The translations under genes and the position numbers were made by a program. 64,000 nucleotides of DNA from an uncultured Candidatus Saccharibacteria bacterium. Its GTDB lineage: Bacteria > Patescibacteriota > Minisyncoccia > Phycocordibacterales > JAACPR01. Numbering within the stretch: the first letter of the stretch is position 1; each line of letters begins with the position of its first letter. This document shows positions 27,691 through 46,169 of this stretch, one piece after another. The notes under the pieces were generated by a model that was given only the letters and a program-made list of their open reading frames with translations, was not told the origin of the DNA and ran no database searches. Where the stretch lies: contig CAZIEY010000001.1 of NCBI GenBank assembly GCA_964538855.1, positions 245,389 through 309,388 of the forward strand, written 5' to 3'.

Positions 27691-29250
27691 ATGATGGGTG
27701 TGATTTTTTCAAAAAACTTTTCAAAAGTATACAGCGCCCAGCCAGCACTTCTGAACGCGCGGCGAGTTGACGTAGAAGTGGATATTTCTCCAGGGCTGCA
27801 CACTTTTACTATTGTCGGGTTGCCAGACAAAGCTGTGGACGAGGCGCGTGACCGAGTCTCATCTGCCATCAAAAATTCTGGGTTTGTTTCGCCCAAACAA
27901 AAAAATCATAAAATTATTGTTTCTCTCGCCCCAGCTGACATTCGAAAAACTGGACCGACCTTTGACCTTGCCATTGCAGTTGGATATTTAAAATCGACGA
28001 GACAAATTGATTTTGATTCAGAGAAAAAATTGTTTGTGGGCGAATTATCGCTCGACGGGAAATTGCGTCCCATGAACGGTATTGTGCCGATTATGATTTT
28101 TGCCCAAAAGGCTGGGTTTACTGAAATCTTTATGCCGAAATCAAACGCAGTCGAGGCAGGACTCGTTGATAAAGTAAAAATTTTTGGGGCAGAAAGTCTC
28201 GACGAGGTTCTGATGCATTTGCGAGGCAAAAAAGAAATCGCAGTCGCTGCGAAAACAAAGACTGCCCCGGAAAATCTAGAGGTGGCGACACGATGGAAAA
28301 ATGAAACGGAATGGGGTCAAATTTTTGGACAAGAAAAAGCCAAAAGAGGATTGTTGATCGCGGCCGCAGGCGGACACAACATCGCTTTTTACGGTCCACC
28401 GGGAACAGGAAAAACGATGCTCGCAAATTCTCTTATTGGGCTTTTGCCGGCGCTTGATTATGAAAAAGTAATCGAGTGTACGTCGATACATTCAACCTTG
28501 ACCGAGCTACCACCATTTCGATCACCCCATCATACTTCGTCACACACTGCGATTGTTGGTGGAGGGGCATATATGAAACCAGGCGAGATTACTCTAGCTC
28601 ACAACGGGGTTCTATTTCTTGATGAATTTCCAGAATTTAATCGCCAAGTCGTTGAATCACTCCGTGAACCAATCGAACGCGGCTCAATTTCTATTTCAAG
28701 AGCTCATGAAAAAATAACCTTGCCGAGCAACTTCATTTTAGTCGTAGCAATGAATCCATGTCCGTGCGGATATTTCGAGACAGGAATCAAGCCGTGTGTA
28801 TGCACCCCACACAACATCAATCGATATCGCAAGAAAATTTCAGGCCCCATCGTCGATCGAATCGATATGTGGATTGAAGTTTCAAATGTCTCTTTTGAAA
28901 GCCTTGATTCTGCCGAAAAGTCTGGAGCAAATTTAAAAAATGGCGACGATTTTATAAAAATAAAATCCCAAGTACTAGCGGCTCGAAAAATTCAGCAACT
29001 GCGTTTCAATTCGCACAAACTAAACAAAGAAATTCCCGTAAAAAAGATTCCGGAATATTGCGCCATGGCGACTGAAGCAAAGAATATCCTTAGAACTTCT
29101 GCAGAGACTTTGAAATTATCGATGCGTGGATACCAAAAAATCATCAAATTAGCGCGCACTATCGCAGATCTAGATTCAAAAAATAGGGGAGGACAAATCA
29201 AAAAAGAACATATTTTAGAGGCGCTTCAATACAGACCGAAAATTAATTAA
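27691..29250 (+). CDS. comM: Mg-chelatase-like AAA+ protein ComM/YifB
   Basis: VYSAQPALLNARRVDVEVDI N-terminus, Walker A GPPGTGKT, Walker B VLFLDEF. Start taken at Met11 of the track ORF. Confidence 0.85.
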   Translation: MMGVIFSKNFSKVYSAQPALLNARRVDVEVDISPGLHTFTIVGLPDKAVDEARDRVSSAIKNSGFVSPKQKNHKIIVSLAPADIRKTGPTFDLAIAVGYLKSTRQIDFDSEKKLFVGELSLDGKLRPMNGIVPIMIFAQKAGFTEIFMPKSNAVEAGLVDKVKIFGAESLDEVLMHLRGKKEIAVAAKTKTAPENLEVATRWKNETEWGQIFGQEKAKRGLLIAAAGGHNIAFYGPPGTGKTMLANSLIGLLPALDYEKVIECTSIHSTLTELPPFRSPHHTSSHTAIVGGGAYMKPGEITLAHNGVLFLDEFPEFNRQVVESLREPIERGSISISRAHEKITLPSNFILVVAMNPCPCGYFETGIKPCVCTPHNINRYRKKISGPIVDRIDMWIEVSNVSFESLDSAEKSGANLKNGDDFIKIKSQVLAARKIQQLRFNSHKLNKEIPVKKIPEYCAMATEAKNILRTSAETLKLSMRGYQKIIKLARTIADLDSKNRGGQIKKEHILEALQYRPKIN

Positions 29251-30335
29251 AATTTACACGCTCGACCAACAATACAATCTGCAAGGGGGTTTTTGGCACC
29301 ACGCACTTCGAAGTGGGTGTGATTTCCCGTAGAATTTCCAGTCGAACCCACATATCCGATCATTTGACCTTTTTCAACTTGTTCACCAACCAAGACAAGA
29401 TTCTTTGATGTGTGACCATACAGTGTTTGTACGCCATTTGCGTGTGAAATAACTATCATTTTTCCATAGCCTCCGTTCCAACCGATTTCGGTACTCTTGA
29501 TGACAGTACCGGCAGCAGCGGCATAAATTGGTGTGCCAAGCGGAGCACCAATATCAACTCCGTTATATCCGTGCAAATTTTGAGTCAAAACCCCCGCCGG
29601 AACTGGATTTATGAAATATGTTCTCGAATCAACCTTTGGGTTAATTGGGAATTTATTAATGAGGGGAGTTGTACCATCTGCACGTTGAGACGACGCATTT
29701 GAAGCAGAAGCAAGTTCGACATTGGGTACAATAATTTTTTGACCTGGCACAAGCGGGGTCTTTTCATCAATACCGTTAAAGAGCGCAATTTCCGCCACAT
29801 CAGCATCATAAATTTTGGCAATATTTTGAATTGTTCCTCCGATTTTCACGGTGTGAGTAATTCCAGTTACTGGCAAAATCAACAATGTTTGGCCGGGCTT
29901 GATTGACCCCTTCAATTCGTTGGCCCATTTGATCGTATTAACTGACACATCAAACATTTCAGCAATTTGTGACAAGGTATCGCCCTCACGAACCTCATAC
30001 ACACTGATAGTACCCGCATGATCGGCCTTTTCTATGTCGAGCGTCGTTCCCGCAAGACCAGATTCAGCCATAAGCGCCATGCCTTCTACTACAACAACAT
30101 GTCCACCATCTTTACTTGGATTGGGGTCTAAATTAACAGCTGCCTGCAAAATGGGGATATTCTGTGAATTCACGTCAGTTGTACCTTTTTCTTGAGAAAA
30201 AGCCTTATTTATATAAGTAAAATTGGGAAAATCACCAAGTGATATGGCTTGTGCAGTATTTGAAGTGAGAATTGATACAAAGAGAGTAATTAAGAGGGTT
30301 AAGTTCTTAAAAACACTCTTTTTCAATATGGTCAT
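29247..30335 (-). CDS. Secreted M23-family peptidase with two LysM domains
   Basis: Signal peptide, two LysM-like segments (DTLSQIAEMF..., GTIQNIAKIY...) and M23 catalytic HxxxD/HxH motifs (GVDIGAP..., GNHTHFE). Confidence 0.8.
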   Translation of the reverse strand: MTILKKSVFKNLTLLITLFVSILTSNTAQAISLGDFPNFTYINKAFSQEKGTTDVNSQNIPILQAAVNLDPNPSKDGGHVVVVEGMALMAESGLAGTTLDIEKADHAGTISVYEVREGDTLSQIAEMFDVSVNTIKWANELKGSIKPGQTLLILPVTGITHTVKIGGTIQNIAKIYDADVAEIALFNGIDEKTPLVPGQKIIVPNVELASASNASSQRADGTTPLINKFPINPKVDSRTYFINPVPAGVLTQNLHGYNGVDIGAPLGTPIYAAAAGTVIKSTEIGWNGGYGKMIVISHANGVQTLYGHTSKNLVLVGEQVEKGQMIGYVGSTGNSTGNHTHFEVRGAKNPLADCIVGRACKF

Positions 30336-33353: not shown

Positions 33354-33779
33354 TTACTTTTTTGGAAACGATGGCAACAAACTCGAACCAGTTCCCGCAA
33401 AAGGGAGGGACGTAATGATACCGTTTGCTATTCCGGTATTAACACAAAATGGTTCGATTGGCAAAAACGGAATTATACCATTCCTACACTGTAGAGGACT
33501 CGTATAATATTGTCCGAGCGCAGAATTACCAGGGATAAAAATATTAAAATTTCGATTCAAACGTGATACAAACGGTATGTACAAAACTCCAATAGGTAAT
33601 TTGGTACGAAAATCCTCTATAGTAACGAGTAAGCTTGAGGAACATAGACAAGGGATGGTACTGAGTACTGTACCACCAAACGGCACAGTAACTATTCCCG
33701 TCGGAATCTGAGCATGTACACCAATCGGCACAATCAACGAACTTACACATAATAGGATGATCGCAAAAAATTTGTTCAT
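33354..33779 (-). CDS. Small secreted hypothetical protein
   Basis: Signal peptide MNKFFAIILLCVSSLIVPIGVHAQ. No recognisable domain. Confidence 0.4.
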   Translation of the reverse strand: MNKFFAIILLCVSSLIVPIGVHAQIPTGIVTVPFGGTVLSTIPCLCSSSLLVTIEDFRTKLPIGVLYIPFVSRLNRNFNIFIPGNSALGQYYTSPLQCRNGIIPFLPIEPFCVNTGIANGIITSLPFAGTGSSLLPSFPKK

Positions 33780-33821: not shown

Positions 33822-34712
33822 ATGCAAACACCGGGGACAAGAGTTATCTATTTTTCAATTTTTGCAGCGATTGTGGTTACGGGAATCATCTCATATTCAA
33901 CATATCAAGAAAAAAAGCCAGTGAGAATCGCAGCGCAAGAAACTGAAAAAAATCTCGCCATCGTGGTCGATAACCAATATAAAAATACCGATTCAGATGC
34001 AGATGGTCTATTCGACTGGGAAGAAACTCTCTGGCGCACCGACCCAGAGAACGCAGACACAGATAAAGATGGGACCAAAGACGGTCAGGAAGTTGCCCTT
34101 AGTCGTGACCCAAACAAAGCTGGACCACAAGATGATTGGGCGCCGAACAACTACCTCGAGCAATATGTTGCAACTACAAAAATCGATCCGAATTCCTTGA
34201 CAAGTCGCATCGCCCAGAATCTATTGATCGCAGTAGGACAAAGTGATAGCCCAGATATTGCCACTACACTACTTGCGCAAATTCAGGCAGAAATAAAAAC
34301 TACCCAAATCTTTAAGAAAGAGAATCTAATTACTTTTGACGATATGAATAAAGAAAAAGTGCAGGAATACGCAAACGCATTTATCGAAATATACCAAAAA
34401 GAGACTCGTGCGGCAGAACTTATTCCAGAAAATAATCAAAAAGCCTATGCGGATGTGTACAAAAAGATGGCACTATCACTATCGACTATTCCAGTCCCAA
34501 ATTCACTTGCTGGAGTACACACCAATTACATCAACAACTTGAATAACATGAGTATTTTCACCACGATCATCATCCAGGCAGAAAACGACCCGATCAAAAT
34601 GGTAGCGGTTATTCCAGAATTCAACAAAATGCTCGGTGAACAAATTACTTTGTTGGAACAAATAAAAACTTACATGCAAAGTAATGCTATAATTTTCACT
34701 ATCGATGCGTAA
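33822..34712 (+). CDS. Membrane-anchored hypothetical protein with Asp-rich DxDxDG-like motifs
   Basis: N-terminal TM, then DSDADGLFDWEE...DTDKDGTKDGQE (Ca-binding-like). Confidence 0.45.
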   Translation: MQTPGTRVIYFSIFAAIVVTGIISYSTYQEKKPVRIAAQETEKNLAIVVDNQYKNTDSDADGLFDWEETLWRTDPENADTDKDGTKDGQEVALSRDPNKAGPQDDWAPNNYLEQYVATTKIDPNSLTSRIAQNLLIAVGQSDSPDIATTLLAQIQAEIKTTQIFKKENLITFDDMNKEKVQEYANAFIEIYQKETRAAELIPENNQKAYADVYKKMALSLSTIPVPNSLAGVHTNYINNLNNMSIFTTIIIQAENDPIKMVAVIPEFNKMLGEQITLLEQIKTYMQSNAIIFTIDA

Positions 34713-35823
34713 TACCAGCAAACCAATCAGCAACAAATTAAAGACAACCTTCAATTTCCTATTGATTGGAATTTTATTGTTCGGTCAATTTGGTGTTGTG
34801 TTTGCACAAAACACTCCGACACCCGATCTTCCTGAAAGTGAAGAGAACTGGCAAAATATCAATGAAAACCAGGAGTTTCGAGATTTAGAAGAAGCTCACA
34901 ACCAATACGACGACCAATTCAACGACGAAACCGGAAAAAAGATCTATCCGGAACAACAAAAGAAACCGGATGCCCCAGTCGCTACCGCAGCTAGCGCAGG
35001 AAAATGTGTCTTGGCACAACTTGCGGCCAACCTAGCAAAAAAGGGTTTCGCTGTGTTCGCAAAAAAAGTATCTGCAACACTGGTCAATGCAACAATGGTT
35101 CCGGTATATATTCCAGGTCTGGAAAACAAAGAAGTTGGAACACTTGGTGGACTTGGACCAAGCGAAGACGGTATTGGATATTGTATTGCAAACAGCATTA
35201 TCCAATATATTTCTGATTCGACGATTGATTGGATTAATAGTGGATTTGAAGGAAATCCTGTGTTCGTCGATGATCCAACACGAATTTTCAAGGATTTAAG
35301 AGACGACACAATCAACACATTTCTCAGTGAATTCGGGGAGGGAATTCTCTGTGAGGATTTTAGTATGAGAGTCAAATTAGCCCTTGTGACAAAAGAACGA
35401 CCAAAAAAGAATTTCAAATGTACTTATGAGATGGTAGATGCCAATATACGAAACATGAAAGAGAACGGGGTTTTCACCTTCGAAGGTTGGGATGAAATCA
35501 CACAAAATCCGCAAAATAATCAAATTGGAGCATTCCTGTCGCTCGATTCAGAGCTATTAAAACTTAAGGCGACGCGAGAAGGTAATTTAAACCAAGAATT
35601 GACCTGGGGTAGCGGATATTTACCATGGAAGGATAAGGATAATAAAAACAGAACAGTTACCCCGGGAAAGGTCGTCCAATCATCTATTGAAAAAAACCTC
35701 CAATTGAAATCAGACCGATTAGTATTAGCAGATGAATTTGATGAGGTTATTGACGCCCTTGCAGATCAACTCATGAGACAGGCAATTATTGGAATTCTCG
35801 GTCAAGAGGAACCACCAAATTAA
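34705..35823 (+). CDS. Secreted hypothetical protein
   Basis: N-terminal TM/signal (FNFLLIGILLFGQFGVVFAQ). No known domain. Confidence 0.45.
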   Translation: MRNTSKPISNKLKTTFNFLLIGILLFGQFGVVFAQNTPTPDLPESEENWQNINENQEFRDLEEAHNQYDDQFNDETGKKIYPEQQKKPDAPVATAASAGKCVLAQLAANLAKKGFAVFAKKVSATLVNATMVPVYIPGLENKEVGTLGGLGPSEDGIGYCIANSIIQYISDSTIDWINSGFEGNPVFVDDPTRIFKDLRDDTINTFLSEFGEGILCEDFSMRVKLALVTKERPKKNFKCTYEMVDANIRNMKENGVFTFEGWDEITQNPQNNQIGAFLSLDSELLKLKATREGNLNQELTWGSGYLPWKDKDNKNRTVTPGKVVQSSIEKNLQLKSDRLVLADEFDEVIDALADQLMRQAIIGILGQEEPPN

Positions 35824-35877
35824 TCTGTATAACTTTTAGTTTGACACATTATTTTTCTGTTATAATTTTCAATAAAG

Positions 35878-38265
35878 ATGTTACATGGGATTTATAAAAA
35901 AATAGGCCTGTTTTTTATACTATTAGTTATAATGGTCGTACCCACCGTGTCGTTACATGCGACGAGCTTATCGACAATGGTAAAAGATCGCGCGTTCGAG
36001 GATAATAGCAACAACGCTCGCGCAAGATATTTAAACGAATATAAAAAAGAATACTCTGATTTGGTTGACAAAATCGCTGGCTCCCAAACTTCAAATCAGG
36101 AAGATTTGCAAAGAAAAGCCAAACTTGAATATCTATTACCAAAAGCAATGAGTTCTAGTGAGTGGGCTAGTTTTTCTCACGCAAACATACACCCAAATAA
36201 AATAAGCAATGTGTCATTTGGGTCTTTATACAATGGCAATACAGATGGTGTCCAAGCAACTGATATATATACAAGAAAAGAAGGAACGGATGACGTTTAC
36301 ACGAGTAATAATCCGAAATTCAAGGACGTCGAATTTACATTGTCACTGAAAAGTGATGGTACATACCAAGTTAAGCGCGCCTACAATCCTGTAACGAAAC
36401 AGGATTTCAGTGTTACAACTGAGGCACAATTACAAGCACTTAAAAAGGCAGCGGAGGCAGACGATGTCGAGATTGTTTGTTATACCGGAGTCAGCACAAT
36501 ACTTAGTACAATTAACCCCCTCTGTTGGATAGCGAAATTTTCTTACTACATCATATTCACTATTAGCTCATGGTTTTTGAGTATATCTGGCCAATTGTTC
36601 AATTTTGTTGTCGTGCAAACTGTTGTTGAGATGAAGGAACTCATCCAAGACAATATCGTCAACCAAGGATGGATCTTATTCAGAGATATTATAAATATTC
36701 TATTCATATTCGTACTTATATATGCAGCGATAAGCACCATTCTAAAGGGAACAAGTGACACAGGAAAAACCATCGTAACAGTTATCGTGGTTGCTGTTTT
36801 AATTAACTTTAGTCTATTTTTTACAAAAGTGATTGTTGATATTTCAAACACACTTGCAGTTAGTTTCTATAATTCCATTACAACGATGCCCCTAAAAGAT
36901 GCAAAGGGTAAGCCTGTTACCATAAACAGCAGTGCTCAATTCGGGATTGCCGAGGTGTTCTTAACTCAAACAAATATGACGACTATTGTCGGCACCAACC
37001 CAGAAAATATTAAGTGGGGTGTTGCGTCATTAACTTATCTCGGAATCATCAAACAGACCCTCATTGCCTCTGTATTTATCGTCATACTGGGAGTAGTTCT
37101 TTTGCTGATGTCATTGATGCTAGTCACCCGATTCCTGATCCTGATATTTGTGATGATCACATCTTCGCTGGCATTTGGATCCTACATACTACCCAAACTC
37201 CAAAGTCAAGTTGCCGACAAATGGTGGCCAGCTCTCATTGGACAAGCGTTCTTTGTACCGGTATTTTTCTTGATGTTATACATTACACTCAAATTTTCCC
37301 AAACACTTCCATTCGACAAAGGTACCGGTTGGGCAAATATGGCACATATTGTACCAGGACAAATAGTCACTTATATTATGATTGTTGGAATGCTTATTCT
37401 ATCAATGAAAGTTGCAAAGAGTATGGCTGACGAAGCGGGCGCGGCGTCCGGAAAAATTACTGGGATGTTGGGCGGGGCAGCACTCAGCGTCACAGGATTT
37501 GCTGCGCGTCACTCAATTGGAATTGCTGCTCGAGAGATAGCAAACAGCAAGCTCCTTTCTGGTAGCGGTCTAACCGCAAGAACTTTGCGTGCTGGATTTG
37601 GCCGTATAGGAGAAAGCAGCTTCGATGCCAGACATTCTGATACATTCAGTCATATAAATGATGCTGTTGGCGGAACCGACTTTGGCAAGGGTCGCGGAGA
37701 AGGTGGTTATGACAAGTTTGCCGACAAGCGAGAGAAGTACCACAAAGAAAAATATGCTGAGGAAGAAAAGGCATATAAAGAAGAGGGCAAATTCACTGAC
37801 GATGAGCAGGACGCTGTTACTGCTGGTCTACAATTTGAGAAAGAAAATAAGTCTGCTATGGAGGTGAAGAAATTGGTTGACGCTAGGGATAAACTCGCTG
37901 CTCGACAGGCTGCTGCGGCTACCCAGCTTGAAAAAGATGCGATCCAAAAACACATCGATAACGTTAATAATGAAATCAACAAAAAAGATATCACGGAAGC
38001 TGACGCAAAAGCAATATACGATAACGCAGATAACAAGAAGATTCTTGACGCCAAGAAAAAAGCAGAAGCTGCCGCAAAAGAAAGGCAAACGAAATTCCTC
38101 GAATCTCGTCAAAAGACTCGATGGGGAATCCGCAGTGGAGATGGTGCTAAATTTGCTCGCGAGCAACTTGCTAAAAACGCCAAGGAGAAAACTGACACCG
38201 ACAGACTTCTTGAGGGTTTGAAAGCATCAGCCAATAGTGGTGGAGGAGGTGGAGGTAAACCATAA
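35878..38265 (+). CDS. Large polytopic membrane protein, putative VirB6/TrbL-like type IV secretion channel component, with a Lys/Glu-rich coiled-coil C-terminus
   Basis: 795 aa with a signal/TM, 6 or more central TM helices and a charged tail. Sits two genes upstream of the PrgI-like and VirB4 genes. Confidence 0.45.
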   Translation: MLHGIYKKIGLFFILLVIMVVPTVSLHATSLSTMVKDRAFEDNSNNARARYLNEYKKEYSDLVDKIAGSQTSNQEDLQRKAKLEYLLPKAMSSSEWASFSHANIHPNKISNVSFGSLYNGNTDGVQATDIYTRKEGTDDVYTSNNPKFKDVEFTLSLKSDGTYQVKRAYNPVTKQDFSVTTEAQLQALKKAAEADDVEIVCYTGVSTILSTINPLCWIAKFSYYIIFTISSWFLSISGQLFNFVVVQTVVEMKELIQDNIVNQGWILFRDIINILFIFVLIYAAISTILKGTSDTGKTIVTVIVVAVLINFSLFFTKVIVDISNTLAVSFYNSITTMPLKDAKGKPVTINSSAQFGIAEVFLTQTNMTTIVGTNPENIKWGVASLTYLGIIKQTLIASVFIVILGVVLLLMSLMLVTRFLILIFVMITSSLAFGSYILPKLQSQVADKWWPALIGQAFFVPVFFLMLYITLKFSQTLPFDKGTGWANMAHIVPGQIVTYIMIVGMLILSMKVAKSMADEAGAASGKITGMLGGAALSVTGFAARHSIGIAAREIANSKLLSGSGLTARTLRAGFGRIGESSFDARHSDTFSHINDAVGGTDFGKGRGEGGYDKFADKREKYHKEKYAEEEKAYKEEGKFTDDEQDAVTAGLQFEKENKSAMEVKKLVDARDKLAARQAAAATQLEKDAIQKHIDNVNNEINKKDITEADAKAIYDNADNKKILDAKKKAEAAAKERQTKFLESRQKTRWGIRSGDGAKFAREQLAKNAKEKTDTDRLLEGLKASANSGGGGGGKP

Positions 38266-38272
38266 AATAATC

Positions 38273-38857
38273 ATGCCCAAAACAGAAAACAATAAAATTA
38301 TCGAGGATCGTTTCGCAGAATTACCTCAAGTTATCCAGAAGATAATCACTGATTCTGGTTGGCAATTCAAAATTCGTGACTTAGTCAAAAAATTTAACAT
38401 TCGTGTGGATCAGGGTGGGGCGATAGAGAACGAGATACTGCTCGTAATGTTAGATTTCGAGAACCCAGAAAATTTCGTCCAAAATATCATGAACGGAGCG
38501 CAGTTGGACCAAAAAACCGCAGAATCTCTCGCAACGGAAGTTGGTTTGTTAATCTTTGATCCAATTCGTGAGGCTCTAATTGCAGAAACGAATTCTGAAA
38601 AAAACGCGCTGAGCGGCGGGTCAAGTGGTTCGGTAGTTCAACCTCTCGAATCTCGCGAAGACCTCCTCAAACAAATCGAGGATCCGACTGAAATTCCCGA
38701 TATCAAACCGAGTACAATGAAAGCGAATGCGTCAGTTGCAGCGACACCGACAGTTTCCGCATCAATCAACGTCGCCACCGCACCAGTCACATCAATACCA
38801 GAAACACCTCGTCCAACCGCGCCAAAAATAGACCCATATCGAGAACCGATTGAATAA
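38273..38857 (+). CDS. Hypothetical protein with a Pro/Thr/Ala-rich C-terminus
   Basis: ORF within the T4SS-like block. Start uncertain (38237 or 38273). Confidence 0.4.
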   Translation: MPKTENNKIIEDRFAELPQVIQKIITDSGWQFKIRDLVKKFNIRVDQGGAIENEILLVMLDFENPENFVQNIMNGAQLDQKTAESLATEVGLLIFDPIREALIAETNSEKNALSGGSSGSVVQPLESREDLLKQIEDPTEIPDIKPSTMKANASVAATPTVSASINVATAPVTSIPETPRPTAPKIDPYREPIE

Positions 38858-38897
38858 TTCGAGCGCAGAGTCGCAGAACTAAGGTACAATTAGACTA

Positions 38898-39347
38898 ATG
38901 AAATACCAAGTCCCACAATTCATCGAGGTCGAGGACAAGATTTTTGGTCCACTCACACTCAAACAGTTTCTCTACGTCGCCGGTGGGGCAGCGATTGGTT
39001 TTATTATTTGGTCGGCAGTTCCAGTAAAATTTATTGCAATAGTAGCCGCGCTACCAGTTGTAATCTTTTTTCTCGCCATGGCATTCTATCGCGTAAATGA
39101 ACGACCTTTCGTAACACTCGTAGAAAGTTCGATCAGATATTTTTTTGGGACTAAACTATACATTTGGCATAAAATCGAAAGGAAGCCTGTGCAGACACAA
39201 AACACTTCTACACCCACAGCAGCGAACAATCTTGATGTACTTATCCCAAAACTTTCCGATAGCAAACTGAAAGAATTAACCTGGAGTCTCGACATTAATG
39301 AAAAACTTGGTAATTCCGGAACCACGAGTGAAAAATTTAAGGTATAA
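38898..39347 (+). CDS. PrgI-family (VirB3-like) small membrane protein
   Basis: N-terminus MKYQVPQFIEVEDKIFGPLTLKQFLYVAGG plus two TM helices matches the PrgI-family pattern. Lies immediately upstream of VirB4. Confidence 0.55.
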   Translation: MKYQVPQFIEVEDKIFGPLTLKQFLYVAGGAAIGFIIWSAVPVKFIAIVAALPVVIFFLAMAFYRVNERPFVTLVESSIRYFFGTKLYIWHKIERKPVQTQNTSTPTAANNLDVLIPKLSDSKLKELTWSLDINEKLGNSGTTSEKFKV

Positions 39348-39365
39348 TGTTTTTGTACCTTTTAT

Positions 39366-40001
39366 ATGGCAACATCTAGCAAACCAACCCAGGAATTCGT
39401 GCCCATCCAAGAAGTTCGTGATGGTATCATCGTCATGCGCGACGGATCGATGCGCGTGATTTTGCTTGCTTCGTCAGTGAATTTCGCCCTCAAATCAGAA
39501 GACGAGCAGGCTGCGATTACATTTCAATTCCAAAACTTCTTGAACTCACTAGATTTTAGTATGCAAATTTTCTTGCAGTCACGCCGGCTCGACATTCGAC
39601 CGTACCTCGCACTTCTCGCTGACAGACAAAAGCAACAAATCAACGACTTAATGCGTATCCAGATTCGCGAATACTCTAATTTCATCAAGAGTTTCACTGA
39701 AAATGTAGAAATCATGACAAAAAACTTCTTCATAGTAGTGCCATATGTACCACTTCGTCTCGATTTCACAAAAAGCGCGGGGTCATTTGGAAAACCAAAA
39801 AAGGATTCGGGGCAAGAAAAAAGTGAGAACTTTGAAGAGGCGCGAATACAGCTCGATCAGCGCATTTCAATCGTCTCAGGCGGACTCTCACGTTGTGGTA
39901 TTCGAACCGTCGTCCTGGGAACAGAAGAAGTGGTCGAAGTCTTCTACAAATTGTTCAACCCGGGTGACATGGACAAGCCGATTTCACTAACACAAAAATA
40001 A
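39366..40001 (+). CDS. VirB4/CagE/TrbE N-terminal domain protein (separate ORF)
   Basis: EFVPIQEVRDGIIVMRDGSMRVILLASSVNFALKSEDEQ resembles the N-terminus of Gram-positive VirB4 (PrgJ/TrsE-type). Stop TAA sits 1 nt before the next ATG, in a different frame. Confidence 0.45.
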   Translation: MATSSKPTQEFVPIQEVRDGIIVMRDGSMRVILLASSVNFALKSEDEQAAITFQFQNFLNSLDFSMQIFLQSRRLDIRPYLALLADRQKQQINDLMRIQIREYSNFIKSFTENVEIMTKNFFIVVPYVPLRLDFTKSAGSFGKPKKDSGQEKSENFEEARIQLDQRISIVSGGLSRCGIRTVVLGTEEVVEVFYKLFNPGDMDKPISLTQK

Positions 40002-40002
40002 T

Positions 40003-41901
40003 ATGGGAATATTCGATTTTCTAAAAAAGAAGGAAGTAGCAACAAAAGGACCAGACATCACCTCGTTTTTGCCACAGCAAATTTATGAGGCAGGTGTCTT
40101 GGAATTACGCGACATTATCGCACCATCTGCTTTGAAAATTACCCCAAAAACACTCAACCTCGGCGAAAAGGTGGTGCGTAGCTTCTTTGTAATTTCATAT
40201 CCGCGCTTCTTGTCAGACAGCTGGTTTGCACCGATTATCAACATGGACAAAGTTTTTGATGTCTCGATTTTCGTCCATCCGATTGAAACTTCAAAAATTC
40301 TAAAGCAATTTCAAAAAAAGGTGGCCGAAGTTCAAAGCCAAATTAACATGCGTGCAGAAAAAGGTCTTGTGCGCGATCCGCAATTAGACACTGCATACCA
40401 AGACCTCGAATCATTGCGAGACAATTTGCAACAAGCACAAGAACGCATTTTTGATGTCGGACTCTACATTACAATTTACGCCGATAACGAAGAAGAATTA
40501 GACAAGGTCGAGTCGGAATTCAAATCAATCCTAGAATCCAAGTTGGTTTACATGAAACCGGCTCTTTTCCAACAAGAAGAAGCTTTCAAAACGGTCATGC
40601 CTCTTTCAACAGACCTTCTCAATATCCATTCCAAGCTTAACTCTGGACCTCTTTCAAGTATTTTTCCATTCATTTCTTTTGAATTAACCAGTGATCGGGG
40701 AATTTTGTACGGAATCAATCGCCACAATTCAGGGCTCGTCTTGTTCGACCGATTCTCACTCGAAAACTACAACTCAGTGACATTTGCAAAAGCTGGTTCC
40801 GGAAAATCGTACGCGACCAAATTGGAAATTTTGCGTTCACTCATGTTTGGTACCGAAGTAATCGTGCTCGACCCAGAACGAGAATATGAATTTCTTGCCG
40901 AAGCAACCGGCGGGCGATATTTCAACGTATCTCTTTCATCAGAACATCATATCAATCCGTTCGACTTGCCGCGCGCAACAGGGGACGAGGAACCTGCGAA
41001 TATTTTGCGCTCTAACATTGTAAACCTCGTCGGGCTTTTCCGTCTCATGTTCGGAGGGCTTTCACCAGAAGAAGATGCGATTATCGACCGAGCAATCAGC
41101 GAAACATACGCCCTCAAAGACATTACACCTGATTCTGATTTCTCAGATATCGAACCACCGCTCTTGTCAGACTTCGAATTAGTTTTGGCTGGTATGGAAG
41201 GTGCAGAAAGTCTCGTCCAAAAATTGAGCAAATACACGAAAGGAACTTGGTCTGGCTTTATCAATAAACCAACAAACGTTGACCTCACCAAACATTTCAC
41301 TGTATTTTCATTGCGCGATATGGAAGACGAATTAAAGCCAATCGCAATGTATTTGATCACGCACTACATTTGGATCGAAGTTCGCCGTGAATTAAAAAAA
41401 CGCCTCCTCGTGATCGACGAGGCATGGTGGATGATGAAATCAGAAGACACCGCCTCTTTCCTATACGGACTCGCAAAACGAGGTCGAAAATACTATCTTG
41501 GACTTTCAACAATCACACAAGACGTTGAAGACTTTATGAGCTCACCATATGGAGTGCCGATTATTACAAACTCATCAATTCAATTTTTGATGAAGCAATC
41601 TCCATCTTCAATCGACGTAGTCCAGCGCACCTTTAACCTGACTGACGAAGAAAAATTCCTTTTACTTGAATCAAACGTAGGGGAGGGTATTTTCTTCGCT
41701 GGCATGAAACACGTTGCCATGAAGGTAATCGCCTCATACACCGAAGATCAAATTATCACGTCCGATCCGTCTCAAGTTTTGTCAATTCGTCGTGCAAAAG
41801 AAGAATTCAAAAATGCCCAAGCAACTGGCAGTGAGGGTCAGGACTTCAACCGTTCAAGCATCAGCAAGGTACGCGAAAACCTCCAAATCAACAAGGCTTA
41901 G
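40003..41901 (+). CDS. VirB4-like type IV secretion ATPase (ATPase domain)
   Basis: Walker A FAKAGSGKSYATK, Walker B LLVIDEAWWMM and the CagE/TrbE/VirB4 C-terminal architecture. Confidence 0.8.
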   Translation: MGIFDFLKKKEVATKGPDITSFLPQQIYEAGVLELRDIIAPSALKITPKTLNLGEKVVRSFFVISYPRFLSDSWFAPIINMDKVFDVSIFVHPIETSKILKQFQKKVAEVQSQINMRAEKGLVRDPQLDTAYQDLESLRDNLQQAQERIFDVGLYITIYADNEEELDKVESEFKSILESKLVYMKPALFQQEEAFKTVMPLSTDLLNIHSKLNSGPLSSIFPFISFELTSDRGILYGINRHNSGLVLFDRFSLENYNSVTFAKAGSGKSYATKLEILRSLMFGTEVIVLDPEREYEFLAEATGGRYFNVSLSSEHHINPFDLPRATGDEEPANILRSNIVNLVGLFRLMFGGLSPEEDAIIDRAISETYALKDITPDSDFSDIEPPLLSDFELVLAGMEGAESLVQKLSKYTKGTWSGFINKPTNVDLTKHFTVFSLRDMEDELKPIAMYLITHYIWIEVRRELKKRLLVIDEAWWMMKSEDTASFLYGLAKRGRKYYLGLSTITQDVEDFMSSPYGVPIITNSSIQFLMKQSPSSIDVVQRTFNLTDEEKFLLLESNVGEGIFFAGMKHVAMKVIASYTEDQIITSDPSQVLSIRRAKEEFKNAQATGSEGQDFNRSSISKVRENLQINKA

Positions 41902-41945
41902 GAAAGCCGGCTTTTCTCGCGAATTTTTGTAGTATAATTTGAGTA

Positions 41946-43022
41946 ATGAAAAAGTCTTTCTATGTAATGCTCGCATTGGCAATAGGGATACCGTTTTTTT
42001 CTTTTGCTCAAATTGCGGAAACTGATATATCCGCAGAAATTCAGGCCTTATTAGACACCTCAGTAGTAGATACATATTCTGGACTACCCGAGGGAGTGAG
42101 TGAGCAACTTTCTCTCGATATCACTCCGACAAATCCTCGACCTTTTGGCGATGTTACTTTGAGAATTACAAGCAACGCCACTGATTTAAACAAAGCAAAC
42201 ATTACTTGGCGGGTTAACAGTGCAGTTTCTCTCAAACAAATCGGTGCAACAACATTTACTTTTACTATGGGGAGGTTGGGGGAAAGTAAGGCAGTAAACG
42301 TTTCGATAGAAAAATACGGGGGAGGGGTTCTCGAAAAGACATACTTCTTTATTCCGACAGAAGTAGATTTGATTTACTCTGCGGACACATACACACCACC
42401 TTTTTACAAAGGGAAATCATGGCCAACACACCAATCAACCATCCGAGTCCTTGCTCTGCCTCGCATTTTGGATGATTATGACAGATTAATTTCCCCTGAC
42501 TCATACGTATACACATGGCGACGCGACGGCCGTGTAGTACAAGACCAATCTGGTTACGGAAAAAATGTCTTTACCTATACCAACGGCTTACTTGATGCAG
42601 ATGTAAAAATTAGTGTCGAAGCTTCTCCGCGCGAATACAACACTGTCGCATCAGCAAGTGTCATCATAGATCCGGTCGAACCCGAAATCGTTGTTTACGA
42701 AAAAAATCCAATCTATGGAACAATTTTTGAACAAGCAGTCACTGGAACTTACTACCTCACCAGAAATGAGATTACTTTTGAGGCCATTCCTTATTTCTTC
42801 AACAAAAACACCTTGGACCTTTCCTGGGTGATGAATGGGCAGCAGATAACCAACCTCTCAAATCCGCGTGAAGTCACCTTCCGTATCGAGGAGGATGAGG
42901 CTGGTAGGTCTGACATTGGCATTCAAGTGACAAATAGTGATAAAATATTGCAGTCAGCAAGCAATGGATTCACCCTGCTTTTTGAAAAGATTGCAGACGC
43001 AACGACTCCAAATAACTTTTAA
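41946..43022 (+). CDS. Secreted hypothetical protein
   Basis: Signal peptide MKKSFYVMLALAIGIPFFSFAQ. Likely beta-rich. Confidence 0.5.
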   Translation: MKKSFYVMLALAIGIPFFSFAQIAETDISAEIQALLDTSVVDTYSGLPEGVSEQLSLDITPTNPRPFGDVTLRITSNATDLNKANITWRVNSAVSLKQIGATTFTFTMGRLGESKAVNVSIEKYGGGVLEKTYFFIPTEVDLIYSADTYTPPFYKGKSWPTHQSTIRVLALPRILDDYDRLISPDSYVYTWRRDGRVVQDQSGYGKNVFTYTNGLLDADVKISVEASPREYNTVASASVIIDPVEPEIVVYEKNPIYGTIFEQAVTGTYYLTRNEITFEAIPYFFNKNTLDLSWVMNGQQITNLSNPREVTFRIEEDEAGRSDIGIQVTNSDKILQSASNGFTLLFEKIADATTPNNF

Positions 43023-43025
43023 CAT

Positions 43026-43544
43026 ATGCGCACATTGAAACTATCGCAAAAAAAAATATTAGTAGGTTCTTTAATATTTACTCTGCTTACCCCTTTTGCT
43101 CTATCTGCCCAAATTTTTAACAGCTCAAATTCTACCTTGCCGCAAGCTCAACAGGGCGCATCAAATCCTGCTGCGACGCAAAATACTACTGCCCCAAAAC
43201 CTGACACAACACAAAAAACCACAGCACCTTCCTCAAAGAAAAGCTACACATCACTCACTGATATTCCAGGACTAACTCAGAACGGCACCAATTCCAATAT
43301 GTTAGCGACTCTCCAATTCATATTCAAGTGGGGAATTGCGGTTGCTGTGTTGCTTGCAATCCTAATGACAATTATAGGCGGAGTACAATATATGACCACC
43401 GATGCGATGTTTGCCAAAGAAGAGGGTAAGCACAAAATTCAATCAGCAATAATGGGGCTTCTCCTCGCTCTTTCGGCTTGGATTATTCTCTACACCATTA
43501 ACCCGCGCATTCTCGAAAAACCAGATTCTGAATTGTTAAGATAA
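43026..43544 (+). CDS. Pilin-like (VirB2/TrbC-like) membrane protein with a Thr/Gln/Pro-rich N-terminal extension
   Basis: Signal peptide, low-complexity region, then two hydrophobic helices (WGIAVAVLLAILMTIIGG..., AIMGLLLALSAWIILYTI) typical of T4SS pilins. Confidence 0.45.
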   Translation: MRTLKLSQKKILVGSLIFTLLTPFALSAQIFNSSNSTLPQAQQGASNPAATQNTTAPKPDTTQKTTAPSSKKSYTSLTDIPGLTQNGTNSNMLATLQFIFKWGIAVAVLLAILMTIIGGVQYMTTDAMFAKEEGKHKIQSAIMGLLLALSAWIILYTINPRILEKPDSELLR

Positions 43545-43581
43545 ACCGCAAAAATACTTTACCACCTGCTATAATAAACGC

Positions 43582-44859
43582 ATGTCTCGTAAAACTCTCT
43601 TAATTATCATTGTACTATTCTTTTGTATCGGAGTCGGATTTTTGGGATATTATTTTTTAAAGCCTACAGCAGTAATTGAAACACCACTCAACAATACTGG
43701 AGTCCAAAACCCGTTTGGTAATTTCTTTCCAGCAGAAAATGTACCAGCAGCTCCGAACGTTACAACACCAGAAAAAGAAACTTCAACTATACAATATAGC
43801 GAACCCATCAGAAACCTGAGAAAAATCGCTGACGTACCGATCGCAGGTGGAATAGTTTTTGATAAAACTGCAACAAGCACCGCGGGCACCGTCTCAAACA
43901 CGATATTCCGATACGTCGAGAGGGCAACAGGTCATGTGTATGAAACAACCGCAACAAGCACCGCTAACGTGCGCATCTCAAACACAACTATTCCAAAAAT
44001 CTATGAGGCATTTTTCTTGGAGGATAAAAACCAAATTGCATTCCGATACTTAGGAAATGATGAAAAAATAGAAACATACGTGGCAACCATTCGCGCAACC
44101 ACCACAGTAGAAGGGGAAGTAAAGACCAACCTCGAGGGTATTTTCATGCAAAAAGACATCTCGGACTTTTCGACTTCTCCAAACGGAAAGAATATCTTCG
44201 CACTATCCCCAAACGCAAACTCTGCGAGTACGGCGCAATTGCTTGGACAAAGTGCCCTGGCTTCTAATCCAAACAAGCAATCAACCCTCTTCAGTTCTCC
44301 AATTCCGGTTTGGTCAGCAGAGTGGTTTGGAGGGGAACAGATTGCAGTCACTTCGAAACCAAGTTACAACGCGCAAGGAATTTTATATTTCATTAATTCC
44401 AGAACTGGATTTCAGGAAAAGATTCTTGGTCCAATCACCGGACTCGTTACAAAACCAAGCCCCGACGGTAAAAAGGTTGTATATTCAAAAAATGACGGTA
44501 GTGGAGTTACAACAAATTTCCTAACTGTTTCAACGAATATTATTAAGAGTTTACCTATCAAAACAATCGCGGATAAATGTGTGTGGAGTCGAAATAACAA
44601 AGATGTGTTCTGTGCGGTGCCGAATTCAAATCTTACCGGAGAATACCCAGACTTATGGTACATGGGACTTACTTCATTCAACGACTCACTCATAAAAATT
44701 GATACGGAACAAGAAACCGTGCGCACAATAATGTCGGTTGGGGCAGAAACAACAGAATCTCTTGATATGATTAACTTGCAACTTTCTCCAAAGGAAGATT
44801 ATTTAGTGTTTACTAACAAACGCGACCTCAGTTTCTGGAGTCTCGATATTAAAGAGTAG
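43582..44859 (+). CDS. Membrane-anchored hypothetical protein with a large extracytoplasmic domain
   Basis: N-terminal TM (LLIIIVLFFCIGVGFLGYYF). Last gene of the T4SS-like block. Confidence 0.45.
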   Translation: MSRKTLLIIIVLFFCIGVGFLGYYFLKPTAVIETPLNNTGVQNPFGNFFPAENVPAAPNVTTPEKETSTIQYSEPIRNLRKIADVPIAGGIVFDKTATSTAGTVSNTIFRYVERATGHVYETTATSTANVRISNTTIPKIYEAFFLEDKNQIAFRYLGNDEKIETYVATIRATTTVEGEVKTNLEGIFMQKDISDFSTSPNGKNIFALSPNANSASTAQLLGQSALASNPNKQSTLFSSPIPVWSAEWFGGEQIAVTSKPSYNAQGILYFINSRTGFQEKILGPITGLVTKPSPDGKKVVYSKNDGSGVTTNFLTVSTNIIKSLPIKTIADKCVWSRNNKDVFCAVPNSNLTGEYPDLWYMGLTSFNDSLIKIDTEQETVRTIMSVGAETTESLDMINLQLSPKEDYLVFTNKRDLSFWSLDIKE

Positions 44860-44862
44860 GGG

Positions 44863-44983
44863 TAAATAAAAATAACTTTAAATTTTAAAAGTCTGGTTGA
44901 GCATCAAAACAAAACACACATTCATTTCTGAACGTGCGTGATGAGACCCGAGGACTTTAAAATTTAAAGTTATTTTTATTTAC
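44863..44983. repeat. Palindromic intergenic repeat, full copy: about 28-bp perfect inverted arms around a 65-nt core
   Basis: Arms GTAAATAAAAATAACTTTAAATTTTAAA / TTTAAAATTTAAAGTTATTTTTATTTAC. Core shared (reverse complement) with the copies at 52981 and 23247. The yidC stop codon lies inside the right arm. Confidence 0.6.
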
Positions 44984-46025: not shown

Positions 46026-46169
46026 TTACTTCGAAGAAACTGTGAGCTTTCGGCGACCTTTCTGCATTCGTCGCTTTAAAGTCTTTTTCCCACCTGGAGT
46101 TTTAGTTCGTACTAGAAATCCGTGAGTTTTTGCTCGCTTTCTTTTTTTTGGGTTGTAGGTGAATGACAT
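46026..46169 (-). CDS. rpmH: 50S ribosomal protein L34 (not in the ORF track)
   Basis: Manual translation [47 protein letters not shown], the canonical L34 sequence. Confidence 0.85.

What the first reader, a model, noticed from the sequence alone, without database searches (positions are those of the whole stretch)
33822..44859. Eleven-gene Gram-positive-style type IV secretion-like block without relaxase or coupling protein
Between ksgA and yidC lie eleven co-oriented genes:
- a probable VirB6/TrbL-like 795-aa polytopic membrane protein with a coiled-coil tail
- a PrgI/VirB3-like small membrane protein
- a VirB4 ATPase (Walker A/B clear)
- a pilin-like two-helix protein
- at least five signal-peptide or membrane-anchored proteins of unknown function

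No VirD4 coupling ATPase, relaxase, oriT-like repeat or integrase is visible in or beside the block. It therefore does not look like a classical conjugative element. It looks more like a chromosomally fixed secretion or cell-cell contact apparatus, of the kind reported in episymbiotic Patescibacteria. The secreted proteins (33822, 34705, 41946, 43582) have no recognisable domains and are the best candidates for novel effector or adhesion functions.
Basis: partly seen in the sequence, partly recalled or inferred. Interest (0 to 1): 0.7.

Follow-up and report, generated by a model that had tools for sequence, protein, structure and literature searches.

The report
Chromosomal Patescibacteria type IV secretion operon
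This is the type IV secretion-like gene cluster that ultra-small Patescibacteria (here a Paceibacteria genome) carry next to their replication origin; it is real and biologically interesting, but papers from 2023 to 2025 already describe it.

Summary
The block is real. Window 33822-44859 holds ten co-oriented ORFs, not eleven, plus one divergent 141-aa ORF. They lie between ksgA and yidC-rnpA-rpmH-dnaA-dnaN, next to the replication origin.

Identified parts:
- PrgI/VirB3
- a VirB4 encoded as two ORFs: a TrsD-like N-domain plus a CD1110-family ATPase
- one VirB2-like pilin

The "unknown" exported proteins are partly recognisable. One has a Ca-binding motif on a membrane anchor, one is a tandem Ig-like protein, and one is a TolB-like beta-propeller. 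Two remain opaque: a very large all-alpha family, and a cytoplasmic protein ending in a conserved DPYREP peptide.

No coupling protein or relaxase occurs anywhere in the 64 kb. The only recombinase is an Xer-like one 9 kb upstream.

The same gene order at the same chromosomal site recurs in 80 Paceibacteria species representatives. It is therefore vertically inherited, not an integrated conjugative element.

However, this system, including the TrsD-VirB4 pair, the pilin, the missing relaxase and the dnaA/ksgA/rnpA neighbourhood, was published by Wang et al. 2023 and Quinonero-Coronel et al. 2025. Its function is still unknown.

The parts
33822..34712 (+). g1, 296 aa. It has an N-terminal membrane anchor (TM 8-26), a Ca-binding DxDxDG / thrombospondin-type-3-like motif (residues ~47-95) and a helical C-terminal domain.
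   Evidence: TM scan. The orthologue profile A5 hits the Ca-binding region of biofilm-associated surface protein 7c7r_B (2.7e-7) and EF-hands. There is a weak NCBIfam CglD/LanM motif hit. The gene is found at the same position in 30 loci.
34705..35823 (+). g2, 372 aa. It has a signal peptide and is an all-alpha exported protein with 4 Cys and invariant W176/P185/C216/C239. Its function is unknown, and it lies immediately upstream of VirB6.
   Evidence: The AF2 model is poor (pLDDT 60.5, pTM 0.29). Nothing was found by Foldseek against the PDB or by PDB sequence profiles. The family has 6,230 50%-cluster representatives at E<=1e-3. One of 48 orthologues hits DUF4141, the Bacteroides conjugative-transposon protein encoded next to traJ (7.3e-5).
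35878..38265 (+). g3, 795 aa. An extended VirB6/TrbL-like polytopic membrane protein: N-terminal signal or anchor, extracellular domain (~45-200), helical TM core (~210-555), and a K/E-rich coiled-coil cytoplasmic tail ending in a Gly run.
38273..38857 (+). g4, 194 aa (206 aa from the GTG at 38237). It has no TM segment, so it is probably cytoplasmic. It has a conserved ~110-aa N-terminal helical domain, a variable Pro/Thr-rich linker, and a near-invariant C-terminal DPYREP motif 2-4 residues from the end.
   Evidence: There is no Pfam or PDB relative. It is present between VirB6 and PrgI in 40 loci.
38898..39347 (+). g5, 149 aa. PrgI/VirB3-family protein with two TM helices.
   Evidence: PF12666 PrgI, 3.1e-10, 40.9 bits against a cut-off of 27. 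TM helices at 25-43 and 45-63. Present in 78 of 80 loci.
39366..40001 (+). g6, 211 aa. TrsD-like protein, that is, a separately encoded VirB4 N-terminal domain.
   Evidence: All NCBIfam hits fall on the N-terminal parts of VirB4 families: VirB4_plasma 9.4e-8 (positions 100-232 of 894), conju_CD1110 1.1e-5 (2-105 of 752), TIGR00929 4.4e-4 (4-156 of 792). TrsD NF041427 scores 1.3e-3. The TAA stop lies one base before the ATG of g7. It is a separate ORF in 79 of 79 loci and shows 59% median identity.
40003..41901 (+). g7, 632 aa. VirB4 ATPase covering the middle and C-terminal P-loop part.
   Evidence: NF045971 conju_CD1110, 1e-106, 358 bits against a cut-off of 325, profile positions 185-733. 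PF19044 P-loop_TraG, 1.6e-24. BLASTP to pCF10 PrgJ gives 3e-38 over PrgJ residues 228-772. Walker A and B motifs are intact in 80 of 80 orthologues. Homologues are about 600-660 aa at 76-96% identity in Paceibacterota/Parcubacteria.
41946..43022 (+). g8, 358 aa. It has a signal peptide and is a secreted protein made of tandem Ig-like beta-sandwich domains.
   Evidence: Profile A3 hits Hoc (3shs_A, 5.7e-4). Orthologues hit BiPBP_C (24 of 65), Ig_3 (15 of 65) and PKD_3 (11 of 65). Present in 76 of 80 loci.
43026..43544 (+). g9, 172 aa. VirB2-like T4SS pilin: signal peptide, Q/T/A/P-rich linker and a two-helix hydrophobic pilin domain (residues 95-158). It is the only pilin in the window.
   Evidence: PF18895 T4SS_pilin, 4.9e-7, 30.2 bits against a cut-off of 26.6. 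NF045849 pilin-like conjugal transfer protein, 9.3e-4. TM helices at 99-117 and 140-158, and no second hit in the six-frame HMM scan.
43582..44859 (+). g10, 425 aa. It has an N-terminal membrane anchor and an extracellular TolB/PD40-like beta-propeller with a conserved Cys pair (C333, C344).
   Evidence: Profile A2 hits TolB (7mx5_A, 1.3e-3, plus 11 other TolB chains). Orthologues hit PD40 (6 of 57) and DPPIV_N (4 of 57). Invariant residues are listed. Present in 64 of 80 loci.
44862..44983 (.). A perfect 28-nt inverted repeat enclosing a smaller hairpin, located between the convergent stops of g10 and yidC. It is probably a bidirectional terminator or an inserted palindrome marking the 3' end of the operon.
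   Evidence: repeat I1. The fold is -47.4 kcal/mol with z -8.3. No Rfam family matches. It is not conserved in the closest relatives.
29247..30335 (-). M23 peptidase with two LysM domains, 3.5 kb upstream on the opposite strand. It is a possible VirB1-type wall hydrolase for the system. The association is not established.
   Evidence: Peptidase_M23 1.1e-30 and LysM 2.2e-22. PMC12102498 reports VirB1-like M23/LysM proteins associated with virB4 in Paceibacteria. It was seen upstream of uvrD in the few loci whose flank reached that far.

Best explanation
[quoted passage not shown] It derives from the Gram-positive (MPF_FATA) conjugation machinery but is no longer part of a mobile element.

Shown here:
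- The operon encodes the membrane platform of a minimal T4SS: an extended VirB6, PrgI/VirB3, and a VirB4 ATPase whose N-domain is a separate TrsD-like polypeptide.
- It also encodes one Sec-exported VirB2-like pilin.
- It encodes five conserved accessory proteins: an anchored Ca-binding protein, an all-alpha exported protein, a cytoplasmic protein with a C-terminal DPYREP peptide, a secreted Ig-like protein, and an anchored TolB-like propeller.

Inferred mechanism:
1. The VirB4/TrsD ATPase docks on PrgI and VirB6 in the single membrane.
2. By analogy with VirB4 in Gram-negative systems, it extracts pilin from the membrane and polymerises it into a short pilus or conduit through the thin wall.
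3. The Ig-like, propeller and Ca-binding proteins form the extracellular collar or host-contact part.
4. The machine serves contact-dependent exchange with the host cell that these auxotrophic epibionts live on. This would be protein or other macromolecule transfer or uptake, not plasmid conjugation.

The substrate and the direction of transport are not known.
For: Component identities.

Not a mobile element:
- The same order and the same housekeeping flanks (uvrD-ksgA | block | yidC-rnpA-dnaA-dnaN-PBP1) recur in 80 species-level Paceibacteria genomes.
- GC content inside the block (0.40-0.43) matches its flanks.
- No tRNA gene, direct-repeat boundary or element integrase lies at its edges.

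Not conjugative by itself: no T4CP or relaxase among the ORFs of at least 150 aa in the 64 kb.

Strong constraint:
- The VirB4 ATPase ORF has 77% median identity, against 61% for DnaA and 50% for KsgA in the same loci.
- Walker motifs are intact in 80 of 80 orthologues.
- The TrsD/VirB4 split is kept in 79 of 79 loci.

Literature:
- The homologous cluster of Southlakia epibionticum is essential for epibiotic growth. It lacks a recognisable coupling protein and relaxase, and it has essential pilins (PMC10633639).
- The phylum-wide survey reports TrsD+VirB4+PrgI+VirB6+VirB2-like pilins, rare relaxases, and location near dnaA/dnaN/rnpA/ksgA/rpmH (PMC12102498).
Against: - No experiment exists for any Paceibacteria system. 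Essentiality is shown only for one Saccharimonadia species with a different accessory gene set: six pilins, two VirB6 proteins, a lysozyme-like protein and an NTF2-like protein.
- Pilus formation by a monoderm T4SS has never been observed.
- No VirB8-like or VirB5-like subunit was recognised here. The operon also holds no wall hydrolase.
- A coupling protein could be encoded outside the window, since VirD4-like hits are common elsewhere in Patescibacteria genomes (PMC12102498). A DNA-related role therefore cannot be excluded.
- The VirB4-versus-DnaA identity comparison is biased, because the loci were chosen by VirB4 similarity.
Confidence: 0.85

Rival explanations
1. It is a DNA-uptake or nucleic-acid import machine, a T4SS run in reverse like Helicobacter ComB or the archaeal Ced system. 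It would supply nucleotides or DNA from the host to an organism that cannot synthesise them.
For: - No relaxase or T4CP is needed for import.
- There are weak P-loop-only NCBIfam hits of VirB4 to CedB (3.8e-8) and CedD (1.9e-3).
- comM lies 4.6 kb upstream and type IV pilus genes are in the window.
- Import from the host is the hypothesis favoured in PMC12102498 and mentioned in PMC12857230.
Against: - The CedB/CedD hits cover only the generic ATPase core and lie far below their cut-offs.
- No ComB- or Ced-specific subunit was found.
- In S. epibionticum, DNA uptake goes through ComEC and type IV pili, and comEC is dispensable while the T4SS is essential (PMC10633639; PMC12857230).
- Nothing in the operon binds or processes DNA.
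Confidence: 0.15
2. It is still a conjugation apparatus. Its coupling protein, relaxase and oriT lie elsewhere in the genome, so it mobilises chromosomal or plasmid DNA between Patescibacteria.
For: - T4CP genes are often distant from virB4. VirD4-like homologues are reported in most Patescibacteria genomes, and 109 relaxases in 103 genomes (PMC12102498).
- Only 64 kb of a contig of at least 388 kb could be inspected.
Against: - Relaxases are found in only ~100 of several thousand genomes, and genomes with a relaxase show no distinguishing T4SS features.
- The Se T4CP homologue is not essential while the T4SS is.
- The operon sits at a fixed chromosomal site in 80 species, and there are no conjugation accessory genes in the window.
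Confidence: 0.06
3. It is a decayed remnant of an integrated conjugative element that lost its integrase, relaxase and coupling protein and is no longer functional.
For: The gene set is reduced relative to pCF10-type systems. PrgK, PrgL, PcfC and the relaxase are all absent.
Against: - All ten ORFs are intact.
- VirB4 is 76-96% identical across many genomes, with catalytic motifs intact in 80 of 80.
- Synteny and insertion site are identical across families of Paceibacteria.
- Base composition is not anomalous.
- Genomes this reduced do not keep 11 kb of dead genes.
Confidence: 0.02

Closest known systems
Patescibacteria-clade T4SS: Southlakia epibionticum ML1 SEML1_0006-0019 (Wang et al. 2023, PMC10633639) and the phylum-wide survey of Quinonero-Coronel et al. 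2025 (PMC12102498)
   Same: - The core order VirB6 - PrgI - TrsD-like - VirB4 is the same.
- VirB2-like PF18895 pilin(s) lie in the cluster.
- An exported Ig-like protein lies downstream of VirB4 (SEML1_0005, PEGA/Ig).
- There is no relaxase or T4CP in the cluster.
- It is located next to dnaA/dnaN; for Paceibacteria, also ksgA, rnpA and rpmH.
   Different: - This block has one pilin instead of an array of six, and one VirB6 instead of two.
- It has no lysozyme-like protein (SEML1_0006) and no NTF2-like protein (SEML1_0012) in the operon.
- It adds a TolB-like propeller, a Ca-binding anchored protein, the g2 all-alpha protein and the DPYREP protein. None of these is in the parts of the Se annotation table (Table S2) that I read.
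MPF_FATA conjugative T4SS of Gram-positive plasmids and ICEs (pCF10 Prg/Pcf; pGO1 Trs; CTn2 CD1110 family)
   Same: - The VirB4 passes the NCBIfam CD1110-family cut-off and aligns with PrgJ at 3e-38.
- A PrgI-family protein is present.
- The VirB6-like / PrgI / VirB4 gene order matches prgH-prgI-prgJ.
- It has a TrsD-like protein, as in pGO1.
- It has a monoderm architecture with no VirB7/9/10.
   Different: - There is no PcfC/VirD4, no relaxase or oriT, no PrgK-type hydrolase, no PrgL-type VirB8-like protein, and no PrgA/B/C adhesins.
- It has a VirB2-like pilin, which Gram-positive systems lack.
- VirB4 is split.
- It is chromosomal and fixed rather than on a plasmid or ICE.
MPF_T VirB/Trw systems (Agrobacterium VirB, R388 Trw)
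   Same: - In these systems VirB4 drives pilus biogenesis without needing VirD4 (established knowledge, not tested here).
   Different: - There is no outer-membrane core (VirB7/9/10) and no VirB11.
- No VirB5 or VirB8 was recognisable.
- VirB6 is extended by an N-terminal extracellular domain and a long coiled-coil tail.
T4SSs that work without a coupling protein (Bordetella Ptl, Brucella VirB) or in reverse (Helicobacter ComB, archaeal Ced)
   Same: The locus has no T4CP, which shows that a T4SS can function without one (PMC12102498; PMC12857230).
   Different: Those are diderm or archaeal systems with different accessory sets and known substrates. No specific subunit homology was found here beyond the ATPase core.

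Membership tests
Patescibacteria-clade T4SS (PMC10633639, PMC12102498) | VirB4 of MPF_FATA-related type whose nearest relatives are Patescibacteria proteins | tested here: met
   conju_CD1110 scores 358 bits against a cut-off of 325. All 120 listed homologues are 76-96% identical, and those with names are Paceibacterota/Parcubacteria. 591 genome loci were confirmed. No formal phylogeny was made.
Patescibacteria-clade T4SS (PMC10633639, PMC12102498) | TrsD-like protein (VirB4 N-domain homologue) encoded next to virB4 | tested here: met
   g6 hits the N-terminal parts of three VirB4 models (9.4e-8 to 4.4e-4) and TrsD (1.3e-3), all below the full-length cut-offs. It lies directly upstream of g7. 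It is conserved as a separate ORF in 79 of 79 loci. The PDB profile search and hhalign against single sequences found nothing.
Patescibacteria-clade T4SS (PMC10633639, PMC12102498) | PrgI/VirB3 homologue near virB4 | tested here: met
   PF12666, 40.9 bits against a cut-off of 27.
Patescibacteria-clade T4SS (PMC10633639, PMC12102498) | VirB6 homologue near virB4 | tested here: met
   [not shown]
Patescibacteria-clade T4SS (PMC10633639, PMC12102498) | VirB2-like pilin gene(s) near virB4 | tested here: met
   PF18895, 30.2 bits against a cut-off of 26.6. It is a single copy.
Patescibacteria-clade T4SS (PMC10633639, PMC12102498) | No relaxase or coupling protein in the cluster | tested here: met
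   None was found among the ORFs of at least 150 aa in the 64-kb window. The rest of the genome could not be read.
Patescibacteria-clade T4SS (PMC10633639, PMC12102498) | Chromosomal location near the replication origin (dnaA, dnaN, rnpA, rpmH, ksgA) in Paceibacteria | tested here: met
   Cumulative GC skew reaches its minimum at ~46-48 kb. The same flanks occur in the related loci.
Patescibacteria-clade T4SS (PMC10633639, PMC12102498) | Required for host-dependent growth | not testable with these tools
   Shown only by Tn-seq in S. epibionticum.
MPF_FATA conjugative T4SS (pCF10 / pGO1 / CTn2 type) | Coupling protein (VirD4/PcfC or TcpA type) and relaxase with oriT | tested here: not met
   Absent from the window. 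pCF10 carries both beside its T4SS.
MPF_FATA conjugative T4SS (pCF10 / pGO1 / CTn2 type) | VirB1-like wall hydrolase (PrgK/TraG) and VirB8-like protein (PrgL/TraM) in the operon | tested here: inconclusive
   No operon protein matched PrgK or PrgL by profile-sequence hhalign. That test has low sensitivity. An M23/LysM peptidase lies 3.5 kb upstream on the other strand.
MPF_FATA conjugative T4SS (pCF10 / pGO1 / CTn2 type) | Carried on a plasmid or integrative conjugative element | tested here: not met
   The block sits at a fixed chromosomal site between housekeeping genes in 80 species. It has no element boundaries and native base composition.

The most novel reading that the evidence does not exclude
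The Paceibacteria version may be a structurally distinct T4SS sub-type. In this reading, five conserved non-canonical subunits replace the missing VirB1/VirB5/VirB8/adhesin functions and build a pilus-bearing conduit for uptake from the host without any coupling protein. The five are the Ca-binding anchored protein, the g2 family with >6,000 cluster representatives, the Ig-like protein, the TolB-like propeller, and a cytoplasmic protein with a C-terminal DPYREP docking peptide. The DPYREP protein would act as the cytoplasmic adaptor of the split VirB4/TrsD ATPase. g2, encoded next to VirB6 like VirB5/TraI, would be the stalk or tip subunit.
Probability: 0.2. Interest if true: 0.6.

Novelty: already known. 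Interest (0 to 1): 0.3.

Why it matters
Patescibacteria make up a large share of bacterial diversity, and the cultivated members live attached to other cells. This T4SS is one of the few machines shown to be essential for that lifestyle in one species, and its substrate is unknown.

The locus adds no new kind of system. It does give a clean Paceibacteria example in which:
- every operon gene is conserved in order across 80 species;
- the VirB6 assignment is backed by structure;
- three of the "grey" accessory genes get fold-level assignments;
- two conserved unknowns (the g2 family and the DPYREP protein) are flagged as targets for structural and interaction studies.

Tried and rejected
1. **g2 as a VirB5/TraI-like stalk or tip protein.**
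   - For: only one of 48 orthologues hit DUF4141, and g2 lies next to VirB6.
   - Against: the AF2 model was too poor to use. Foldseek, PDB profile searches with 36 and 128 sequences and hhalign against TrwJ gave nothing.
   - Kept only as a low-probability lead.
2. **Systematic hhalign of the unknown-protein profiles against pCF10 Prg/Pcf proteins and R388 Trw proteins**.
   - The only signal was g3 against TrwI (probability 23%, E 9e-4).
   - Single-sequence templates make this test insensitive.
3. **A fused TrsD-VirB4 in locus L039.** This was an artefact of my ORF routine. An in-frame stop separates the two ORFs.
4. **TrsD profile against PDB sequences and against PrgJ/TrwK.** No hits.
5. 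**ICE hypothesis.** Rejected on synteny, composition and the lack of boundaries.
6. **Promoter and terminator scan.** Counts were no better than in shuffled sequence for promoters.
7. **The 122-nt palindrome downstream of the operon.** There is no Rfam family and it is not conserved in close relatives.
8. **AFDB50 fold search.** The library was unavailable.
9. **Search for extra pilin paralogues in the window.** None were found.

Full report
**1. What is in the sequence**

Between ksgA (32548-33339) and the convergent yidC (44976-45695, minus strand), the plus strand carries ten tightly packed ORFs from 33822 to 44859. Gaps are at most 55 nt and there are two short overlaps. The gaps leave no room for an eleventh co-oriented gene. 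The only additional ORF is a divergent 141-aa signal-peptide protein at 33354-33779 (minus strand). It is called as a gene on an identical public contig.

Downstream lie yidC, rnpA, rpmH (46026-46169, minus strand), then dnaA and dnaN. The cumulative GC skew has its minimum there. The block therefore abuts the replication origin. GC content in the block (0.40-0.43) matches its surroundings.

**2. Identities of the parts**

Direct profile hits above curated cut-offs:
- PrgI (PF12666, 40.9 bits against 27) for 38898-39347.
- T4SS_pilin (PF18895, 30.2 against 26.6) for 43026-43544.
- VirB4 of the CD1110 family (NF045971, 358 against 325) for 40003-41901.

The ATPase ORF matches only profile positions 185-733 of that family. 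It aligns to residues 228-772 of pCF10 PrgJ (3e-38).

The missing N-terminal part is the preceding 211-aa ORF (39366-40001).
- It hits the N-terminal ~100-150 positions of three VirB4 models (9.4e-8 to 4.4e-4) and the TrsD family (1.3e-3).
- Its TAA stop lies one base before the ATG of the ATPase ORF, in another frame.

The 795-aa protein has no Pfam hit of its own. The evidence that it is VirB6-like comes from four sources:
- 8 of 48 orthologues hit TrbL/VirB6, which is the only recurrent family.
- One homologue passes the TrbL cut-off (29.2 against 25.9).
- The top four Foldseek PDB hits are all TrwI.

It is an "extended VirB6" with an N-terminal extracellular domain and a long K/E-rich coiled-coil tail.

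**3. The "unknown" proteins**

Profiles built from orthologues in related genomes give fold-level assignments for three of them.

| Gene | Coordinates | Assignment | Evidence |
|---|---|---|---|
| g1 | 33822-34712 | Membrane-anchored, with a Ca-binding DxDxDG motif | 2.7e-7 to the Ca-binding region of a biofilm surface protein |
| g8 | 41946-43022 | Secreted tandem Ig-like protein | Hoc 5.7e-4; BiPBP_C, Ig_3 and PKD_3 in 24, 15 and 11 of 65 orthologues |
| g10 | 43582-44859 | Anchored TolB/PD40-like beta-propeller | TolB 1.3e-3 plus eleven more TolB chains; PD40/DPPIV_N in orthologues |

Two proteins stay opaque.

- **g2 (34705-35823)** is an exported all-alpha protein with conserved cysteines.
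  - Its model was poor (pLDDT 60) and nothing matched.
  - Its family is nonetheless very large: 6,230 cluster representatives at E<=1e-3.
- **g4 (38273-38857)** has no hydrophobic segment.
  - It has a conserved N-terminal helical domain and a variable Pro/Thr linker.
  - It ends in a DPYREP motif 2-4 residues from the C-terminus in nearly all 33 orthologues examined.

**4. Is it a mobile element?**

No. Pfam scans of the ORFs of at least 150 aa in the window found no coupling protein and no relaxase.

The only recombinase is an XerC/D-like protein 9 kb upstream. The five tRNA genes are all at least 12 kb away. No direct repeats bracket the block.

A scan of one genome per species found at least 591 loci encoding a close VirB4 relative. 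In the best 80, tblastn with all window proteins shows the same order. That order is uvrD-ksgA-[g1...g10]-yidC-rnpA-dnaA-dnaN-PBP1, wherever the contig and the 10-kb flank reach. Record titles for these 80 include Wolfe-, Zambryski-, Taylor-, Campbell-, Kaiser- and Nomurabacteria, Paceibacterota and Parcubacteria.

Numbers of loci, out of 80, in which each gene was found:

| Gene | Loci |
|---|---|
| VirB4 | 80 |
| TrsD | 79 |
| PrgI | 78 |
| g8 | 76 |
| pilin | 64 |
| g10 | 64 |
| VirB6 | 57 |
| g2 | 49 |
| g4 | 40 |
| g1 | 30 |

The upstream genes are often cut off by the flank limit.

- TrsD and VirB4 are separate ORFs in 79 of 79 loci. One apparent fusion was an in-frame stop.
- Walker A and B motifs are intact in all 80.
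- Median identity of the VirB4 ORF is 77%, above DnaA (61%), UvrD (52%) and KsgA (50%) in the same loci. This comparison is biased, because the loci were ranked by VirB4 similarity.

**5. Comparison with what is known**

This is the system already described for Patescibacteria.

Wang et al. 2023 (PMC10633639):
- The T4SS cluster of Southlakia epibionticum is essential in Tn-seq.
- It resembles Gram-positive conjugative systems most closely.
- It has essential pilins and lacks a recognisable coupling protein and relaxase.
- Its supplementary tables give the core order VirB6-PrgI-(hypothetical)-VirB4, followed by lysozyme-like and Ig-like exported proteins.

Quinonero-Coronel et al. 2025 (PMC12102498), a survey of the phylum:
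- A monophyletic VirB4 clade is related to MPF_FATA.
- TrsD is the most abundant companion of VirB4.
- PrgI/VirB3, VirB6 and VirB2-like pilins lie near virB4.
- Relaxases occur in only ~100 genomes.
- For Paceibacteria, the neighbourhood is dnaA, dnaN, rnpA, ksgA and rpmH.

A 2025 review (PMC12857230) lists these systems as the notable newcomers of the superfamily and speculates on a pilus conduit for uptake.

The present locus meets every sequence-level feature of that description; see the membership table. It fails the defining features of a conjugative MPF_FATA element: a T4CP, a relaxase and carriage on a mobile element.

**6. Mechanism**

Shown: the parts list, their conservation and their chromosomal fixation.

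Inferred:
1. The VirB4/TrsD ATPase sits on PrgI and VirB6.
2. It polymerises the Sec-inserted VirB2-like pilin into a short pilus or conduit. In Gram-negative systems, pilus biogenesis needs VirB4 but not VirD4 (established knowledge).
3. The Ig-like, propeller and Ca-binding proteins provide the wall-spanning and host-contact parts.

The transported substrate and its direction are unknown. Import of DNA or other macromolecules is a live rival. Conjugation with distant T4CP and relaxase genes is unlikely but not excluded, because only 64 kb of a contig of at least 388 kb could be read.

**7. Verdict**

The finding is already in the literature.

What this analysis adds:
- structural confirmation of VirB6;
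- fold assignments for three accessory proteins;
- two conserved unknowns worth follow-up.

Noticed in passing
window 44862-44983: A perfect 28-nt AT-rich inverted repeat (arms 44862-44889 and 44956-44983) encloses a GC-richer hairpin. It lies between the convergent stop codons of g10 and yidC, and the right arm overlaps the yidC stop. It folds to -47.4 kcal/mol (z -8.3). There is no Rfam family. It is absent from the two closest relatives, but other Paceibacteria have different strong hairpins at this spot.
   Followed up: partly
window 38273-38857: A cytoplasmic operon protein carries a near-invariant C-terminal DPYREP(I/L/V) peptide after a variable Pro/Thr-rich linker. It is the only ORF in the window with this motif. 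It looks like a docking peptide, and its partner is unknown.
   Followed up: partly
window 33354-33779 (minus strand): A divergent 141-aa ORF lies between ksgA and the operon. It has a signal peptide, six cysteines and no family hit. tblastn finds it at the same position in 7 related loci. It is not known whether it belongs to the system.
   Followed up: partly
window 34705-35823 and relatives: The g2 protein belongs to a very large uncharacterised family: 6,230 50%-identity cluster representatives at E<=1e-3, and 3,751 at E<=1e-30. No Pfam or PDB relative was found. Most members are ~500-550 aa, longer than the window copy.
   Followed up: partly
window 3138-6104 (minus strand) and 57369-59087 (minus strand): Type IV pilus genes are present: two PilB-like T2SSE ATPases with MshEN domains (4368-6104 and 57369-59087) and a PilC-like T2SSF protein (3138-4358). 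This is the other envelope machine implicated in the epibiotic lifestyle.
   Followed up: no
window 24104-25069 (minus strand): An XerC/D-like tyrosine recombinase (Phage_integrase 1.8e-40 plus SAM-like N-domain) lies 9 kb upstream of the block. It is the only recombinase in the window and is probably housekeeping.
   Followed up: no
window 27661-30335: A ComM-like Mg-chelatase-family ATPase (27661-29250) and an M23 peptidase with two LysM domains (29247-30335, minus strand) lie just upstream of uvrD-ksgA. The peptidase is a candidate VirB1-type wall hydrolase for the T4SS.
   Followed up: partly
related loci L006, L008, L012, L013, L016 and others, between g10 and yidC: About a third of the related loci have a ~480-720 nt gap between the propeller gene and yidC, instead of the 5-230 nt seen in the window and in the other loci. 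This suggests an extra small gene or element there in those genomes.
   Followed up: no
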